Source: Octopus sinensis
Lineage: Eukaryota
DNA length: 64,000 nucleotides
Direction: 5' to 3'
Assembly: GCF_006345805.1 (NCBI RefSeq)
Contig: NC_042998.1
Coordinates: 94,178,001 to 94,242,000, forward strand
Part shown: positions 11,191-62,725 of the stretch, one piece after another
Numbering within the stretch: the stretch's first letter is position 1
Layout of the letters: the number at the start of each line of letters is the position of its first letter
Notes under the pieces: model-generated
What the model was told of the DNA's origin: nothing
What the model saw: the letters and a program-made list of their open reading frames with translations, nothing else
The model's database searches: none
Made by a program: the position numbers and the translations under genes

Positions 11191-12690
11191 CATACCCAAT
11201 GACGGTGTAGCAGCATACTAGTCAACTGCTACAAAGGTAAAGGAGATGCCCTAGATACAAATAATTACAGAGGTATCAAGCTGTTGGATCAGGTAATGAA
11301 GGTTACAGGGAGGGTCATAGCCCAACTGATTAGGGAGAGAGTCAACTTGGATGAGATGCAGTTTGGTTTCATGCCAGGGAAAAGCACCACTGATGCCATA
11401 TTTCTGGTGAGACAGCTGTAGGAGAAATACCTAGCCAAAGATAAGCCCCTGTACCTGGCTTTCGTTGACATGGAGAAAGCCTTTGACAGGGTCCCCCGAT
11501 CCCTTATCTGGTGGTCAATGAGGAAACTAGGGATAGATGAATGGCTGGTGAGGGCTGTGCAAGCCATGTACAGGGATGCCGTAAGTAAGGTGAGGGTTGG
11601 CAACATGTACACAGAAGAATTCAAAGTAGAGGTTGGGGTCCACCAGGGTTCAGTACTCAGCCCCCTCCTATTTATCATAGTCCTCCAGGCAATTACAGAG
11701 GAATTCAAGACATGTTGCCCCTGGGAGCTCCTCTATGCTGACGACCTTGCTCTAATTGCTGAGTCACTATCAGAACTGGAGGGGAAGTTCCAGGTGTGGA
11801 AGGAGGGTTTAGAATCGAGGGGCCTTAGAGTCAACCTAGCTAAAACCAAAGTACAAATAAGTAGGAAAGTAGACAATCCACAAATGTCTTCAGGAAGATG
11901 GCCCTGCTAGATCTGTAGAAAAGGTGTAGGTAGAAACTCTATAAGATGTACCCAGTGTAAGCTATGGACACATAAGAGGTGCAGCAATGTCAAAGGAAGG
12001 CTAACTGGGAAGATAGTTTTTGTATGTGGCAGATGCTCAGGAGCAATAAACCCTGAAAATCTGCAGAAAACAACTTCCGTCACTTTCCAGGGAGAAAAAC
12101 TAGAAGTAGTTGATAGCTTCAGTTATCTAAGTGACCAAGTCAGTAGTGGGGGTGGGTGCGTTGAAAGTGTAACTGCTAGAGTAAGAATAGCCTGGGCAAA
12201 GTTTAGGGAGCTCTTACTTCTGCTGGTGACTAAAGGCCTCTCGCTCAGAGTAAAAGGCAGACTGTATGATGCATGTGTACGAACAGCCATGCTACATGGC
12301 AGTGAAACATGGGCCGTGACTGCTGAGGACATGCGTAAGCTGGCGAGGAATGAAGCCAGTATGCTCCGATGGATGTGTAATGTCAGTGTGCATACTCGAC
12401 AGAGCGTTAGTACCTTGAGAGAAATGTTGGACCTAAGAAGCATCAGTTGTGGTGTGCAAGAGAGACGATTGTGCTGGTATGGTCATGTGGCGAGAATAGA
12501 TGAAGATAGGTGTGTGAAAAAGTGCCAATCCCTAGCAGTTGAGGGAACCCATGGAAGAGGTAGACCCAGGAAAACCTGGGACAAGGTGGTGAAGCACGAC
12601 CTTCGAACTTTAGGCCTCACTAAGGAAATGACCAGCGACCGAGACCTTTGGAAATATGCTGTGCGTAAGAAGACCAGGCAGGACAAGTGA
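11191..12690 (+). pseudogene. RTE reverse transcriptase ORF remnant
   Basis: After a frameshift near 11205, one reading frame with premature TAG at 11419-11421 and 11908-11910 and the natural stop at 12688-12690. Confidence 0.9.
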
Positions 12691-21752: not shown

Positions 21753-22312
21753 TAGGAATAAGGTTCAAATTAAGTGAAAATGGAAATCATAGTCAACCTC
21801 AACATACACAAACATGCAGGAAGTAAATAGACATCTTTAATTTTCAAAATTTCTGATCTAAGCATCTTAATATGTTATCAGGGATGTAGAATTTACAATG
21901 TAATTATTCTTTTTCATTCCAGGTGCCATTATTAAACATTTGTGACGAGTAACCATACCATGCACAAAAAATTCAGTAGAACTGTCAGATTTTCAAAAAC
22001 GTCATATTGTTGGGCAATATGAGGCTGGTGTTAGCCAGCAGAAAGTTGCTGAAAATCTTCAAATTCCTCTTGCTACTGTTAATAGAATTATAGTGCAATT
22101 CAAAAGCCAAGGAAAAGAATCAACAAATTCTCATCCCAGCCTAGCTGGGCCCTCAGAAAGGAAACGTCACTGTTTGAAGAGAATTGTGGAAAATGAACCT
22201 GTTCAAAGGCTTCTGACATTGCAAAACAGCTAGAAGTTAGTCCAAGAATGTATGTTACATATCTGCATAAGCTTGGGTATTATGGATACATATCTGCATA
22301 AGCTTGGGTATT
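21753..22312 (+). mobile_element. Tc1-family transposon 5' fragment (paired-like HTH region)
   Basis: VELSDFQKRHIVGQYEAGVSQQKVAENLQIPLATVNRIIVQFKSQGK...(frameshift)SKASDIAKQLEVS..YLHKLGYYG; ends in a 25-bp direct duplication. Confidence 0.75.
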
Positions 22313-50474: not shown

Positions 50475-51375
50475 CATTTCCCTCTGGAAACAGTTCCTCA
50501 ACAATAGGATGAATTTGATGAGATAAAATCCTTAAATAGTTTTGGCTATTAATTCTGCCATGAAGGGAAACCATTGGGCCAGTGGATTTCCAAGATATAG
50601 CCCCCACAGATCATCACAGATCCTCCTCCATGTTTAGCAGTTGGAAGAAGGTAGTCTGGGTCAAATGCTTCTTTTGGATGTCTCCACATGTATACTTGAC
50701 CAGTGGTCAGAAATAAGGTAAAGGATGACTCGTCTGAGAAAATACATTCTTCCACTGCTCTAGGGACCAATTCTGTAGGTTTTTACTTCACTCTAAATGC
50801 TTTGCAACGTTTGTTTTTGAAAGTAGTGGTTTTCTGATTGCAGCCCTCTCATTAAATCCAGCTTTGTGCAGCTCCCAGCAAACAGTTTTTGTGGAAACTG
50901 AGTTCATGAGGTGGTCATTAGGCTCTGCAGTAATTTTAGGAGCTATACCTTTGTGATCCTTTCTAACAATTCGCGTAAGAGTCTGACAGTCCCTATCTGA
51001 AAGTTTTGGTTTTCTTCAAGAGTTTTGTTTCGACAAGGAGGTTTTTCCCTTTTTCTTAAAGGCTGTCATTACTTTTGAGACAGTACTTCTAGAAAAACTG
51101 AACATTTCAGCTATTTTCATTACGCTAGTGCCTGCCATACAAGCACCAACAATTTGACCATTTTGAAAGTCCGATAGATCTGTCATTTTAATGAATTTTA
51201 ATTACCTTTTTCTGATGATATCTGAAAAGAAACAACAATTTTAGCAAAACATATTAAGTAATGCTAATAATAAATCAAAAAACATAAAAATAAACAATCT
51301 TTTGACGGTTTTATAGATATTTCAAAATTATGATGCTATGATGCTAGGTGTTTACATTATTTTGTTTAATCCCTG
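50475..51375 (-). mobile_element. Tc1-family transposon, 5' two-thirds, degenerate
   Basis: TA then CAGGGATTAAACAAAATAATGTAAACACC TIR at 51375; ATG at 51186 MTDLSDFQNGQIVGA; FSDESSFTLF, PTAKHGGGSVMI; truncated before the second catalytic Asp. Confidence 0.85.
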
Positions 51376-54617: not shown

Positions 54618-55911
54618 TGAGGGGAAGTCAAAAATTAACTGCACTTTTGCCATAACATATCTTTATTATTGTCACACTACCTTCACATGTCTGCTTATAG
54701 CTGGTACTATTGTGGTCATGTGTTCGCAGTTTGAGCTTGATCACACCATTTTTTTTTTTCTGGCTTTACATGGCTGCTCCACTAGTAATGTGCACTAAAG
54801 AAGAACAAAAAGCAGTGATCTAACTTCCCTGGTCGGAAGATGTGTCAGGTGCTGAAATTCATCAGAAGCTTTTAGCATTATACAGGGATAGTGCACTACT
54901 GCATAGAAGTGTGTATGAGTGGATTGAGAAGTTTAAAAGTGGCTGTGCAAACATGACATACAAAGAGGGAGCAGGACGCCCACCACCCTCCACCACTGAT
55001 GAGAAATTCAGCAAGCTTGAGAGAGGTAATGGTGAACCAGTGAGTTATCATCAATGTGGTAGCTCATTCTCTGCAGATTTGTCATGGTTCTCCATATCAA
55101 ATCATCCGTGATGAGCTCAGCTTCCATAAAGTCTGTGCAAGATGGGTACCAAGATAGCTTACTGCAGAGTACAAACAGAAACATCTTGTGGTCTGCCAAC
55201 ATCTTAAGGTCTACCAATGAGGGCAAGAAATTTCTGAACAGAATAGTCACAGGAGATGAAATGTGGGTTCATTGCTATGAAGCAGAATCCAAAAGACAGA
55301 GTATGGAGTGGAGACATCCTGGCTTGCCAGCAACAAAGAAATTCAAGTCTCAGTCTTCCATGGGTAAAGTGATGTTAACCCTTTTTGGGGACTCAAAAAG
55401 GCCTATACTAGAAGGCTACTTGGAAAGGTGGTGTACAGTCAACAGTGCAAGATACAGCCCTTTGCTGGCCAACAAACTGAAGCCAGCAATTTGCACCAAA
55501 CACCAAAGCCTATTGTTGAAGAAAGTTTTGTTGTTGCATAATAATGCATGCCTACACACGGCCACCCAGACTGATCAAATCATTAACCAGTTGGATTTTG
55601 AGGTGCTGGAACACTCTGCTTACAGCCAAGATCTTGTCCCTTCAAACTATCATATCTTTGGACTCCTCAAAGATAGCTTACTAGGTCATCTATTTCCTAC
55701 AAATGAAGATGTAAAGGAAGCGGTGCATAAATGGTTGCATGACCAACTGAAAACCTTCTTCTTCAAGGGAATATGCAAGTTTGTGGATCGCTGGACCAAG
55801 TGCATCAGAAAGGAAGGAGACTATATAGAAAAATGACATACTCGTTTATCCCCTACTTTTGTGCAGATACATTGAAAAACAAGAATGCATATAACTTTTG
55901 ACTCTAACTCA
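54618..55911 (+). mobile_element. Full-length mariner element, inactive
   Basis: About 1.29 kb; imperfect TIRs TGAGGGGAAGTCAAAAATTAACTGCA / TGCATATAACTTTTGACTCTAACTCA; transposase from ATG 54770 to 55836 with stops and frameshifts; IVTGDEMW, ESKRQSMEW; second and third catalytic Asp replaced (LHNNA, YSQDLVPSNY). Confidence 0.92.
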
Positions 55912-56172: not shown

Positions 56173-56415
56173 CATATATGCATATAGATAATGTGTGTTA
56201 TACATTCATTTGTACTTTATAGACCTACAATTGTTTCAAATATTAATTTTGGGTATGTTCTTACTTCAATTTAATCAATCAATTGATTAATAGATTGAAA
56301 ATATATTGAACAAACCACTGGAAAACAAACCACCAGAATCCACCACACCGATATATATGTATATGTGTGTATATCTACCTGTCTGTCTATCTATCTATCT
56401 ATCTATATATATATA

Positions 56416-56482
<67 letters not shown>

Positions 56483-56699
56483 ATTTGTTGAAATAGAAAG
56501 ATGAATTTTCTTGTAACAGATTATTCAAAGGTTTAACCGATACCTGGGTAGCAAAAATCACAGCGGAAAACAGCACTGTTGGAGATAAGACCATTTGGTG
56601 TTGCAACCGTGCGTTGGAGCGGATAATTGAAGTTTAATATTATTAGTGAATGGAATAAATGGAGTTGAACGAAGATTGTACAGAATACCTTTTATTACA

Positions 56700-56779
56700 T
56701 TCTACACATGTTTCAAAGGCCACAAATTTCCAAATTCTGTTTAAATAAGGGTACCATATTGCGGCTTTCTCTTCAGGAA
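56700..56779 (-). ncRNA. Hammerhead motif, mirror copy
   Basis: Reverse complement of 57283-57362 with a G-U pair at the base of stem II. Confidence 0.55.
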
Positions 56780-57282
56780 AAAAAACAGGAATTCCGTTGA
56801 CAGGACAAAACAAAACAGAGGCACAGCAATTCGAACGAAGATGCTCCTTAGGAGCCCATGGCTGAACTGTTTATCAATGTATGTTGAAATCGGGGATTTG
56901 GTGCGTTGATGATATCTACAGGTCAGGTGGCGGTCAGATCCAGTCGGTGGAAGCAAGGGGTGTGGGGATGCTCTGTGTGACTAACACTAATGTTCTGAAG
57001 AATTTAAGAATACTGGGTGTATTTAAGGGGCGAGACAAAAGCCTCCTATAAGCAAGTATGTGTGTGATGGCCTATGTGTTAGTCACACAGAGCATCCCCA
57101 CACCCCTTGCTTCCACCGACTGGATCTGACCGCCGCCTGACCTGTAGATATCATCAACGCACCAAATCCCCGATTTCAACATACATTGATAAACAGTTCA
57201 GCCATGGGCTCCTAAGGAGCATCTTCGTTCGAATTGCTGTGCCTCTGTTTTGTTTTGTCCTGTCAACGGAATTCCTGTTTTT

Positions 57283-57362
57283 TTCCTGAAGAGAAAGCCG
57301 CAATATGGTACCCTTATTTAAACAGAATTTGGAAATTTGTGGCCTTCGAAACATGTGTAGAA
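57283..57362 (+). ncRNA. Type I minimal hammerhead ribozyme motif
   Basis: CTGAAGA 57286-57292; stem II GAAAGCCGCAA / TTGTGGCCTTC; GAAA 57348-57351; stem III with palindromic ACATGT; GUA site ending at 57359; stem I only TTC/GAA; AATAAA follows. Confidence 0.6.
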
Positions 57363-58054
57363 TGTAATAAAAGGTATTCTGTACAATCTTCATTCAACTC
57401 CATTTATTCCATTCACTAATAATATATATATATATATATAAAGTAACAAACTGAGGAAAAGCAAGCCTTCAAAGGGATATGTTAAACATCCAATTCACTG
57501 GTACTTCAGTTGGATACCATATATATATATATAATGATATGTAATTGTAAGATCCAAGCATCTAGGTGTAGGAAGCTGGTAAGCTTTGAGCAGTCCATGG
57601 TAGGTACAAGAAGCAATTTTCAGGAATAATAATAGTTTATTGGCATAGAAGGTTGGAGGCTTTCCCCATATTGAAGTTTGATATAGTTCACAGTTAGCAA
57701 CTAGGTTGCTATGAATGTGAATAAAAATTCATACTGAGCAACTAAAATCCAAGCTACATATGTTTCCAAGCTAGCAGATCCTTGGAAGTATTAATTACTC
57801 AGTAAGGGGTACTCCACTAGCTGGCCGAATATACCTTTGCTAAATGAAGGTTACATTGTCATTATGGAATCCCGAGTTAACTCACCAGAAATATAATTTA
57901 AAATTTGGACAAATCAGAATGTCTCTAAATCTCTGACTATATGAAGGGTCGGTGTTCACTCTGTGGGATCTCGTTGCAAGCGTTCATGCCAACCGACAGC
58001 AGTTGCGTAGACGGCAGCAGCAGCAATTGCCAGATCATGATCACTTAAACATGC

Positions 58055-60931: not shown

Positions 60932-60973
<42 letters not shown>

Positions 60974-61679
60974 CAAAATAAGCAACAAGGATATCCAGAG
61001 GTAATGCAGTGCAATCGTTTCATGCAACTCCATTTAATTTAACAATGCAATCATTATATCAATTTAAATGCAGAGCAATCCTCAGCTGCACAAAGACATA
61101 GAATTTAATTAGGAGGACGTAACACTTTAAGAAAGGGATAAACAACTTAGTTACTAAAACTATTTTAAACAATATATCCATATTGTATAAAGTTAAAATT
61201 TAGGGTTATCAGGAAGATTTATCATTGAGGTGAGAGAACAAATTTACTAAAAATTAGTTGAATTATATCTAAGCAGTTTCATTTTAAGTTGTGAAGACAC
61301 CCATATTGTTTTCTATAAGCTAAGTATGAATTTATAGGGGTACAAAAATCTAGGTTTATCTAAAGGCAATTATAAAGTATTAAAATGATCAGGTAGGGTT
61401 GAACACCATAGAAAAGGATATAAAATAGCTTAATCCCTAAAATCATGATGAAGTATATATACAACTTAGTAACTTCAATAGAGAAGATTTATAGAAAATA
61501 TGTAATAATTCAAGTATTTAAAACTAAAAATTATTTATTTACTTAATTAGCTTGTATCTATAATGACTGATATCCTGTATTAACTAAAGGAAAATTAATG
61601 CTGTAGGGCATGCTACCTATGCACTGATTATAAACTAAGAGGTATATTATAGGTTTTAAATCACAAGATCAATAAAGTG

Positions 61680-62099
61680 CTACTTTCTAAAATATTTAAA
61701 GGTATGATTGGCACTATGTACACATGATACCCTAAGGTCTAATTAATTATTAATTAGGTTGCCATTATCTTTATGCTTAAAAATTTCATATGTTTCCATA
61801 GAGCACAGCTCACACCCATATCTGCTATTTCTATAAGGCTGAGCTTTTCTTATTATTTCCCATTTGAGGCTAAACCCAATTCTACTTTCTTTCAATTCCC
61901 AAATCTTACTGGATAATCACGTACAATTCACCTTACGTTTAAGTTTAAAGAACGATACGTGATTGTATATACACTGTTTCAAATTAATCAAACAACCAAA
62001 GTAAATATAATTATTAGTGGTAGTTATTATTGTGCATTTATATGCTACGTTCTGGGTAAGACATTGTCCTAATAATGGACAGCAGGATTTAACTCTACC
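61680..62099 (-). pseudogene. GIY-YIG endonuclease remnant of a Penelope-like element
   Basis: CPLLGQCLTQNVAYKCTI..NYIYFG..LKQCIYNHVSF..T*LSSKIWELKE..LKWEIIRKAQPY..CELCSME..NLINN*LDLRVSCVH; two internal stops; absent from the ORF track. Confidence 0.85.
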
Positions 62100-62496
62100 C
62101 CCTTAATTGTCTGCTAATATCTTGTTTTAAGTTTTCCTTTACCAAGCCTCATGATATTGCTTCAAATAAATCTTGATTTTTATGACTATACCAACTATGA
62201 TTTCTGTCTGTTCCCTCAGCCCTACCCCTAACAGATACTGCCCCTTTGTTCTCTCAACCTTAGATATACAAGGATTTGATAAACTAGTCTATAAATTAAA
62301 ACTGACCCCATAAAAACAAAAAAATCAGTGACAGGCAGAGTCTGTAACAATGTACATCTTCTTGATACCTTAGTAGCTTCTATGCTGGAGTGAAGGCAGA
62401 ATGTTCTTTGTCTATCTCCTTAACTTCTTGGAGATTTCAGGTATAATTATACTAATGTGTCCATCTGTTTTAATTTAATTAAATTCTATGTCTTTG

Positions 62497-62582
62497 TGCA
62501 GCTGAGGATTGCTCTGCATTTAAATTGATGTAATGATTGCATTGTTAAATTAAATGGAGTTGCATGAAACGATCGCACTGCA
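62497..62582 (+). ncRNA. Hammerhead-like motif with long stem II and non-canonical GCA triplet (mirror copy 61005-61090, minus)
   Basis: Stem I TGCAG/CTGCA; CTGAGGA 62502-62508; hairpin CATTTAA/TTAAATG; GAAA 62566-62569; palindrome CGATCG; then CA in place of TH. Confidence 0.55.
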
Positions 62583-62725
62583 TTACCTCTGGATATCCTT
62601 GTTGCTTATTTTGATTTTAATCACCTTACTTTGAAATAGTATGGATGATACTAAATTGTACTAAATTCTGGTGCCTCAACTTAGGTACCATATTCATCTG
62701 AATCTCTCTCTCTCTCTCTCTCTCT

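What the first reader, a model, noticed from the sequence alone, without database searches (positions are those of the whole stretch)
56637..57425. Young 350-bp fold-back carrying two outward-facing hammerhead ribozymes
Seen: arms about 99 percent identical, an 88-bp spacer with TATA-like TATTTAA and TATAA, no ORF of substance, and in each arm CUGAAGA-stem II-GAAA-CAUGUG-UA followed by AATAAA. Established: PLE pseudo-LTRs and non-autonomous retrozymes carry type I hammerheads, and PLE insertions often have an inverted pseudo-LTR. Inference: a non-coding PLE or retrozyme unit. Divergent transcripts from the spacer could self-cleave, whereas read-through RNA would form a 350-bp duplex masking the ribozyme and feeding ADAR or siRNA pathways. 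Stem I is only 3 bp, so activity is uncertain.
Basis: partly seen in the sequence, partly recalled or inferred. Interest (0 to 1): 0.75.

Follow-up and report, generated by a model that had tools for sequence, protein, structure and literature searches.

The report
Mirror-image stub of a Penelope retrotransposon
The hairpin is two back-to-back, cut-short copies of the end of a protein-coding Penelope-like jumping gene with thousands of copies in this genome, each carrying a predicted self-cutting RNA motif; this layout is already known, and here it likely arose when both strands of the target DNA primed a copy from two fixed start points.

Summary
In detail: the arms match at 347 of 351 columns and each holds a type I hammerhead core. 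The interpretation needs correcting. The 88-bp spacer is not a promoter between two units; it is the element's own 3' UTR. The left copy also continues 153 bp past the reported start (a one-sided tail). The true insertion is 56484-57425, set in (TA)n. [quoted passage not shown] The fold-back is the family's usual form: 53 of 70 sampled loci. In 51 of 54 junctions one arm ends at a short end and the other at the tail end; 38 of 44 gap-free junctions share 2 nt or more. That fits priming from both target strands. The hammerhead's stem III loop stays self-complementary, as in dimeric PLE hammerheads; its activity is untested. Small new points: 5' ends pile up at an initiator-like site inside each arm, and the lineage lacks the Hydra cysteine linker yet targets (TA)n. 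The scan found this layout before on other octopus DNA. New member of a known kind.

The parts
56484..57079 (-). 5'-truncated copy A of the Penelope-like element: part of the 3' UTR (the 'spacer'), pseudo-LTR with hammerhead, and tail
   Evidence: The 592-bp stretch 57075-56484 matches relatives end to end at 85-97%; maps to r3091-3693 of reference copy L069
57076..57425 (+). Inverted 5'-truncated copy B, ending at the short 3' end
   Evidence: Maps to r3186-3540; 347 of 351 columns identical to copy A
57076..57079 (.). 4-nt junction microhomology (GTGT), shared by both copies
   Evidence: Overlap of 4; family contigs of runs X2, X3, X6 follow the window to 57079 and then go on into upstream element sequence (table 7)
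56988..57075 (-). 'Spacer' = element 3' UTR of copy A, not a separate promoter
   Evidence: Its reverse complement lies directly upstream of the arm in other copies
56484..56636 (-). 153-bp one-sided tail; in tandem full-length copies it is the 5' leader ending about 49 nt before the ORF start codon; holds a conserved 9-bp hairpin (one pair broken in this copy)
57276..57369 (+). Predicted type I hammerhead, right arm (core 57286; GAAA 57348-57351; cut after A57359)
56693..56786 (-). Predicted type I hammerhead, left arm (core 56776; cut after A56703); first stem II pair G-U instead of G-C
57193..57198 (+). Initiator-like site (ACAGTT here, TCAGTT in an older subfamily), predicted transcription start of the pseudo-LTR; mirror copy at 56865-56870 (-)
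   Evidence: 31 of 125 sampled 5' ends lie at r3294-3317, 14 of them at r3303-3307; initiator consensus recalled
57426..57440 (.). (TA)n target, right side
   Evidence: Sequence; 56 of 56 true short ends are followed by a TA run
56372..56483 (.). (TA)n/(TATG)n target microsatellite, left side

Best explanation
This is one recent insertion of a high-copy, protein-coding Penelope-like retrotransposon resembling the Hydra clade: two 5'-truncated copies of the element's 3' end joined head to head inside a TA repeat, likely made when both strands of the target primed a cDNA. Shown: identity of the element, its boundaries, the one-sided tail, the 4-nt shared junction and the frequency of this layout in the family. 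Inferred mechanism: the GIY-YIG endonuclease nicks both strands of (TA)n; one nick primes reverse transcription at the short end (57425 equivalent), the other at the tail end 153 nt further on; both cDNAs stop early and anneal by a few complementary bases. At this locus both arms reach upstream of the predicted transcription start and overlap, so two copies of the 3' end were needed as templates (two RNAs or a tandem transcript). The hammerhead is a passenger part of the pseudo-LTR, kept by selection in the active family and predicted to fold as a dimer through its self-complementary stem III loop. At this locus the two motifs lie on opposite strands, so one transcript cannot form that dimer in cis, and read-through RNA would bury the motif in a 350-bp duplex. 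The locus itself is most likely inert.
For: Family copies continue upstream into an RT+GIY-YIG ORF; 13 of the 20 loci, picked for long frames, hold open frames of 850-925 codons, several flanked by direct and inverted pseudo-LTRs. 4,501 exact hits of a 23-nt marker, 0 for the reversed control; 511 for the window's subfamily marker. Of the 70 loci behind the first 100 listed hits, 53 have a head-to-head junction (54 junctions). 51 of 54 pair a short end with a tail end; 38 of 44 gap-free junctions overlap by 2 nt or more against 16% expected. In 33 of those 51 the short arm reaches further 5', and 11 tail arms do not overlap the short arm at all, which self-copying cannot give. Hammerhead core invariant in 20 of 20 aligned copies while N7 varies; stem II 90% paired with two-sided changes at 2 of 9 pairs; stem III centre U-G 13, C-G 5, U-A 2, never unpaired. 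PMC8557442 and PMC3846280 describe inverted truncated copies and one-sided tails; PMC11167929 shows both strands cut and extended, with two RT start sites bracketing the tail; PMC4209133 notes hammerhead pairs 100-700 bp apart on opposite strands.
Against: No listed short-read contig spans the junction 57075/57076 of this locus (the table is cut). Pfam finds nothing in the ORF, no tree against published Hydra proteins was built, and the clade's cysteine linker is missing. One junction pairs two tail ends and two could not be classed. Junction overlaps come from BLAST ends against several references and are inflated by natural palindromes (15 and 12 nt cases). The hammerhead fold is 5.5 kcal/mol (right) and 9 kcal/mol (left) above the minimum-energy fold. 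The mechanism rests on genomic end points, not on biochemistry.
Confidence: 0.85

Rival explanations
1. Same element, but the inverted arm arises by self-priming or copy-back of one cDNA, or by priming on an antisense transcript (the proposal in PMC3846280).
For: Microhomology and some short palindromes at junctions; in this window copy B is a sub-sequence of copy A, so copy-back could build it.
Against: In 33 of 51 short/tail pairs the arm that reaches further 5' lacks the tail that the other arm carries, and 11 tail arms share no sequence with the short arm; copy-back would also have to stop exactly at the short end.
Confidence: 0.15
2. A non-autonomous retrozyme or other non-coding unit that moves as a fold-back, with divergent promoters in the spacer.
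For: No ORF in the window; hammerheads conserved; many short copies.
Against: The spacer is 3' UTR of a coding element; junction points differ from locus to locus, so the fold-back is not a unit that was copied; no head-to-tail arrays of the short unit were seen in the loci examined; TATA-like words are not conserved.
Confidence: 0.03
3. The locus has been, or acts as, a host regulatory hairpin (ADAR substrate or siRNA source).
For: Near-perfect 350-bp duplex if transcribed through; small RNAs against Penelope are reported in a rotifer (PMC3846280); one probable RNA contig of the family spans another head-to-head junction (X17 record 20).
Against: No host exon among 83 window frames tested; thousands of equivalent insertions exist; the locus is young.
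Confidence: 0.05
4. Assembly artefact (fold-back chimeric read).
For: No listed contig bridges this junction.
Against: The arms differ at 3 sites, all CpG transitions away from the family state; the tail is on one side only and the flanks differ; head-to-head joints at other positions appear in short-read contigs of X1, X2, X6, X13, X14 and X17.
Confidence: 0.02

Closest known systems
Hydra clade of C-terminal EN+ Penelope-like elements, including Hydra-1_Obim of Octopus bimaculoides (Craig et al. 2021, PMC8557442)
   Same: Single ORF with RT and C-terminal GIY-YIG-type nuclease, DKT motif, CxxC and CxH around the nuclease, no CCHH, hammerhead in the pseudo-LTR, (TA)n targets; RT motifs match the paper's Fig. 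S7 rows by eye.
   Different: RWL instead of RWK; no CxCX5C linker, replaced by an Asn/Ser-rich stretch; ORF about 900 aa and element about 3.6 kb, against under 3 kb; hammerhead unlike that of Hydra-1_Obim (55-nt stem II region, palindromic stem III loop); tail 153 bp against the usual 30-40 bp.
Inverted, 5'-truncated pseudo-LTR insertions with one-sided tail in EN+ PLEs (PMC8557442 Fig. 2 legend; Adineta vaga Pen2a, PMC3846280)
   Same: Head-to-head copies, tail on one end, junction overlap.
   Different: Here counted as a near-strict rule: one short end plus one tail end in 51 of 54 junctions.
Minimal and dimeric type I hammerheads of metazoan PLEs (Cervera and De la Pena 2014, PMC4209133)
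   Same: Long helix II, short helix I, small palindromic helix III, pairs on opposite strands 100-700 bp apart.
   Different: Loop II is long and structured (about 37 nt); no extra base between core position 9 and stem II in my pairing.
Poseidon element PAc of Anolis (Frangieh et al. 2024, PMC11167929)
   Same: Two RT start sites bracket the tail; both target strands are cut and extended in vitro; AT-rich targets.
   Different: Different clade; here both start sites end in TA-like sequence that could pair with the target, and the tail lies before the start codon.
Animal non-LTR retrozymes (bioRxiv 10.64898/2026.07.22.740005)
   Same: Type I hammerhead of PLE origin.
   Different: Retrozymes are head-to-tail tandem, non-coding units; this is a head-to-head stub of a coding element.

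Membership tests
EN+ Penelope-like elements | Single ORF with RT and GIY-YIG endonuclease | tested here: met
   ORFs of about 900 aa with YRDD and a C-terminal nuclease region; 32-44% identity to 28 unnamed database proteins; Pfam silent
EN+ Penelope-like elements | Pseudo-LTRs from partial tandems, inverted 5' copy, optional tail | tested here: met
   L072, L075, L076, L077, L078, L081
EN+ Penelope-like elements | Type I hammerhead motif in the pseudo-LTR | tested here: met
   (motif and covariation only)
Hydra clade | DKG modified to DKT | tested here: met
   DKT in 6 of 7 copies covering the site, DMT in one
Hydra clade | N-terminal RWK motif | tested here: inconclusive
   RWL at the aligned site in 5 of 5 copies covering it; relatives have RWK, RWR, RWE or RWT
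Hydra clade | No CCHH; CxxC and CxH around conserved E and N | tested here: met
   CxxC..E..N..CxH in 8 of 8
Hydra clade | CxCX5C linker before GIY-YIG | tested here: not met
   Absent in 8 of 8 family ORFs; a cysteine linker is present in 8 of 9 database relatives aligned, the ninth being cut short, and in all 9 Hydra rows of Fig. S7 seen. Hence 'Hydra-like'.
Hydra clade | Insertion into (TA)n | tested here: met
   56 of 56 true short ends (59 captured, 3 were tail-bearing arms); 20 of 21 captured tail ends
Hydra clade | Falls in the Hydra clade in an RT tree | not tested
   Published reference proteins were seen only as text in the supplement; comparison by eye
Type I hammerhead ribozyme | Conserved core CUGANGA, GAAA, UH with helices I-III | tested here: met
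Type I hammerhead ribozyme | Self-cleavage at the predicted site | not testable with these tools
   No raw RNA reads; genomic 5'-end test inconclusive
Non-LTR retrozyme | Head-to-tail tandem units each with a hammerhead, non-coding | tested here: not met
   Head-to-head layout; parent encodes RT

The most novel reading that the evidence does not exclude
In this lineage fold-back insertions are the normal product of a two-template, two-nick reaction: two RNAs are copied at once from two fixed start sites, possibly held together by the self-complementary stem III of their hammerheads, and many cDNAs run off at a transcription start about 95 nt before the ribozyme. The thousands of stubs would then be a fossil map of the element's RNA ends, and TA targeting would not need the cysteine linker proposed for it.
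Probability: 0.25. Interest if true: 0.6.

Novelty: new member of a known kind. Interest (0 to 1): 0.27.

Why it matters
The locus itself is ordinary. The family is useful because it is young, abundant and has near-intact ORFs, so it gives counts for an open question, how Penelope-like elements make their inverted ends and one-sided tails. The one-short, one-tail rule and the junction microhomology give a direct prediction for an in vitro assay. The missing linker with retained TA targeting speaks against the linker as the only targeting part. Thousands of near-perfect hairpins could matter for RNA editing in a cephalopod if they are transcribed, which is not shown here.

Tried and rejected
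Rfam found no hammerhead in the window region or in four relatives' loci. Pfam found no domain in the family ORF. In vivo cleavage footprint: 7 of 125 arms begin at r3473-3475, but that sample was selected on sequence starting at the cut. Genome-wide, markers preceded by two non-family letters gave 23 hits at the cut, 7 at +3 and 34 at -2. Of the 23, 14 look like true boundaries and 9 like indels or other changes (by eye); the controls were not inspected. No sharp peak, so inconclusive. Sequencing runs: no RNA holder listed; four runs guessed to be RNA hold family contigs, mostly under 95% alike, and cannot show strand, ends or editing. No listed contig bridges this locus's junction. My first recall of the clade (Nematis) was wrong once the paper's alignment was seen. 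TATA-like words in the spacer are not conserved. RT stalling at the hairpin near r3316-3332 was considered for the 5'-end hot spot: the stops lie beyond the hairpin, not before it, but it is not excluded. The hot spot was seen mainly in one sample; other subfamilies gave 4 ends at -91 to -98 from the core among loci chosen for other reasons. No host exon among 83 of 186 candidate frames. The constrained energy printed was off by one base and was redone. Literature searches showed no paper on this family or on the short/tail rule; most subscription papers and Repbase are not covered.

Full report
Observation. The two arms (56637-56987, 57076-57425) align at 347 of 351 columns around an 88-bp spacer, and each carries CUGAAGA, a 55-nt stem II region, GAAA, CAUGUG and UA, followed by AATAAA. 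The predicted cut lies after A57359 and its mirror A56703. Rfam does not detect the motif. The three substitutions between the arms are all CpG transitions away from the family state, which points to a real, young, probably methylated insertion.

What it is. The arm has many relatives in the own genome G000 (2.72 Gb; octopus-like by my inference from the repeats and from PMC8557442): 1,601 candidates, 40 scored. In the relatives the reverse complement of the spacer lies directly upstream of the arm (25 of the other 28 loci; 3 are truncated before it), and 153 bp beyond the reported left end are also family sequence. So the insertion is copy A on the minus strand (57079 to 56484: 3' UTR, pseudo-LTR, tail) plus inverted copy B (57076-57425), sharing 4 nt at the junction. 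[quoted passage not shown] A search with its N-terminal 205 residues gave 151 matches from 150 scored of 4,786 candidates. Twenty loci picked for long frames show pseudo-LTR, ORF, pseudo-LTR layouts with inverted 5' copies. The tail is the leader that ends about 49 nt before the start codon in tandem copies.

Family. PMC8557442 (passages, section 11 in full, supplement tables and part of Fig. S7) defines the Hydra clade and lists Hydra-1_Obim, whose hammerhead differs from this one. The ORF here has DKT, CxxC and CxH, lacks CCHH and targets (TA)n, but has RWL for RWK and no CxCX5C linker in 8 of 8 copies, whereas 8 of 9 aligned database relatives have a cysteine linker. I therefore call it Hydra-like; no tree was built.

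How common is the fold-back. A 23-nt marker for the window's subfamilies has 511 exact hits and a broader one 4,501, with 0 for reversed controls. The first 100 listed hits (contigs C1-C3) fall in 70 loci, all fetched. 53 have a head-to-head junction (54 junctions) and 17 show one arm. Of the 54, 51 pair a short end (r3540, 57425 here) with a tail end (r3693, 56484 here), 1 pairs two tails and 2 could not be classed. 38 of 44 gap-free junctions overlap by 2 nt or more against 16% by chance; 10 others have inserted bases. Five values in that tally were taken or set by hand (L120, L144 twice, L172, L175; two overlaps are off by one), and extra distant pieces in L154, L170 and L174 were not counted. 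Ends sit in TA runs: 56 of 56 true short ends and 20 of 21 captured tail ends.

Mechanism. Self-copying of one cDNA cannot explain most pairs: in 33 of 51 the arm that reaches further 5' lacks the tail, and 11 tail arms do not overlap the other arm. Two primings, one from each target strand at two fixed RNA sites, followed by annealing of the cDNA ends, fit all classes. This is inference. It agrees with PMC11167929 (passages), where a Poseidon protein cuts and extends both strands and starts at two sites bracketing the tail, and it resembles L1 twin priming (recalled). PMC3846280 (passages) instead proposes self-priming on an antisense template. 31 of 125 arms stop at r3294-3317 against about 4 expected from the downstream rate, 14 of them within 5 nt, at an initiator-like CAGTT (57194-57198; consensus recalled). 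I read this as the RNA's 5' end, so the promoter is likely inside each arm. The window's arms both pass this site, so they were copied from 3' ends.

Ribozyme. In 20 aligned copies (picked for diversity from 43 distinct variants) the core is invariant, N7 varies, stem II covaries and the stem III loop stays self-complementary (U-G 13, C-G 5, U-A 2). PMC4209133 (first two of four parts) describes such motifs as dimeric with low activity, and notes pairs on opposite strands 100-700 bp apart. The hammerhead fold is 5.5 and 9 kcal/mol above the minimum in the two arms. A test for 5' ends at the cut site was inconclusive. In PMC11167929 cleavage needed protein and was not required for insertion. 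Activity here is untested.

Artefact and expression. No listed contig bridges this junction (table cut), but head-to-head joints at other positions occur in short-read contigs of six runs, and the asymmetry of the arms argues against a chimeric read. No RNA holder is on record. No host exon was found. The retrozyme preprint (10.64898/2026.07.22.740005, first of five parts; supplements closed) defines retrozymes as head-to-tail tandems, which this is not. PMC6962438 (passages) only counts hammerheads in squid.

Verdict. A new member of a known kind; interest 0.27. Earlier notes of this scan reached the same layout on other octopus DNA; I saw them after my own analysis, and only the tail hairpin was taken from them as a lead.

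Noticed in passing
window 60968-62619: A second, unrelated fold-back of the same design: 144-bp arms 99% complementary, hammerhead-like cores CUGAGGA at 62502 (+) and 61085 (-), and a broken Hydra-type nuclease with a cysteine linker on the minus strand between the arms.
   Followed up: partly
window 54824-55836: Decayed mariner-type transposase (Pfam Transposase_1 and HTH_48).
   Followed up: partly
window 50552-51201 and 21946-22230: Tc1-like transposase remnants (HTH_Tnp_Tc3_2, HTH_SB).
   Followed up: no
window 11422-12687: LINE-type reverse transcriptase remnant (RVT_1).
   Followed up: no
L031:1501-6795 (G000:C1): Near-perfect 5-kb palindrome of the same family with 615-codon ORF pieces in both arms, one arm short-ended and one tailed.
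   Followed up: partly
L039:2850-5282: An 811-codon open frame of a different, Neptune-like Penelope element (label by eye) next to a copy of this family; only 20% local identity to the family ORF.
   Followed up: no
L085:5315-5444: 130-bp palindrome with short hammerhead-like cores just 5' of the most divergent ORF (59% identity), which has the shortest linker and no cysteines there.
   Followed up: no
L077 ORF, between thumb and nuclease: Two Asn/Ser-rich stretches absent from database relatives, recalling the N-rich inserts of Adineta vaga Penelopes.
   Followed up: partly
L146 and an X1 contig joint 56703-57359: Junctions at or next to the predicted cut site with short inserts copied from neighbouring sequence.
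   Followed up: partly
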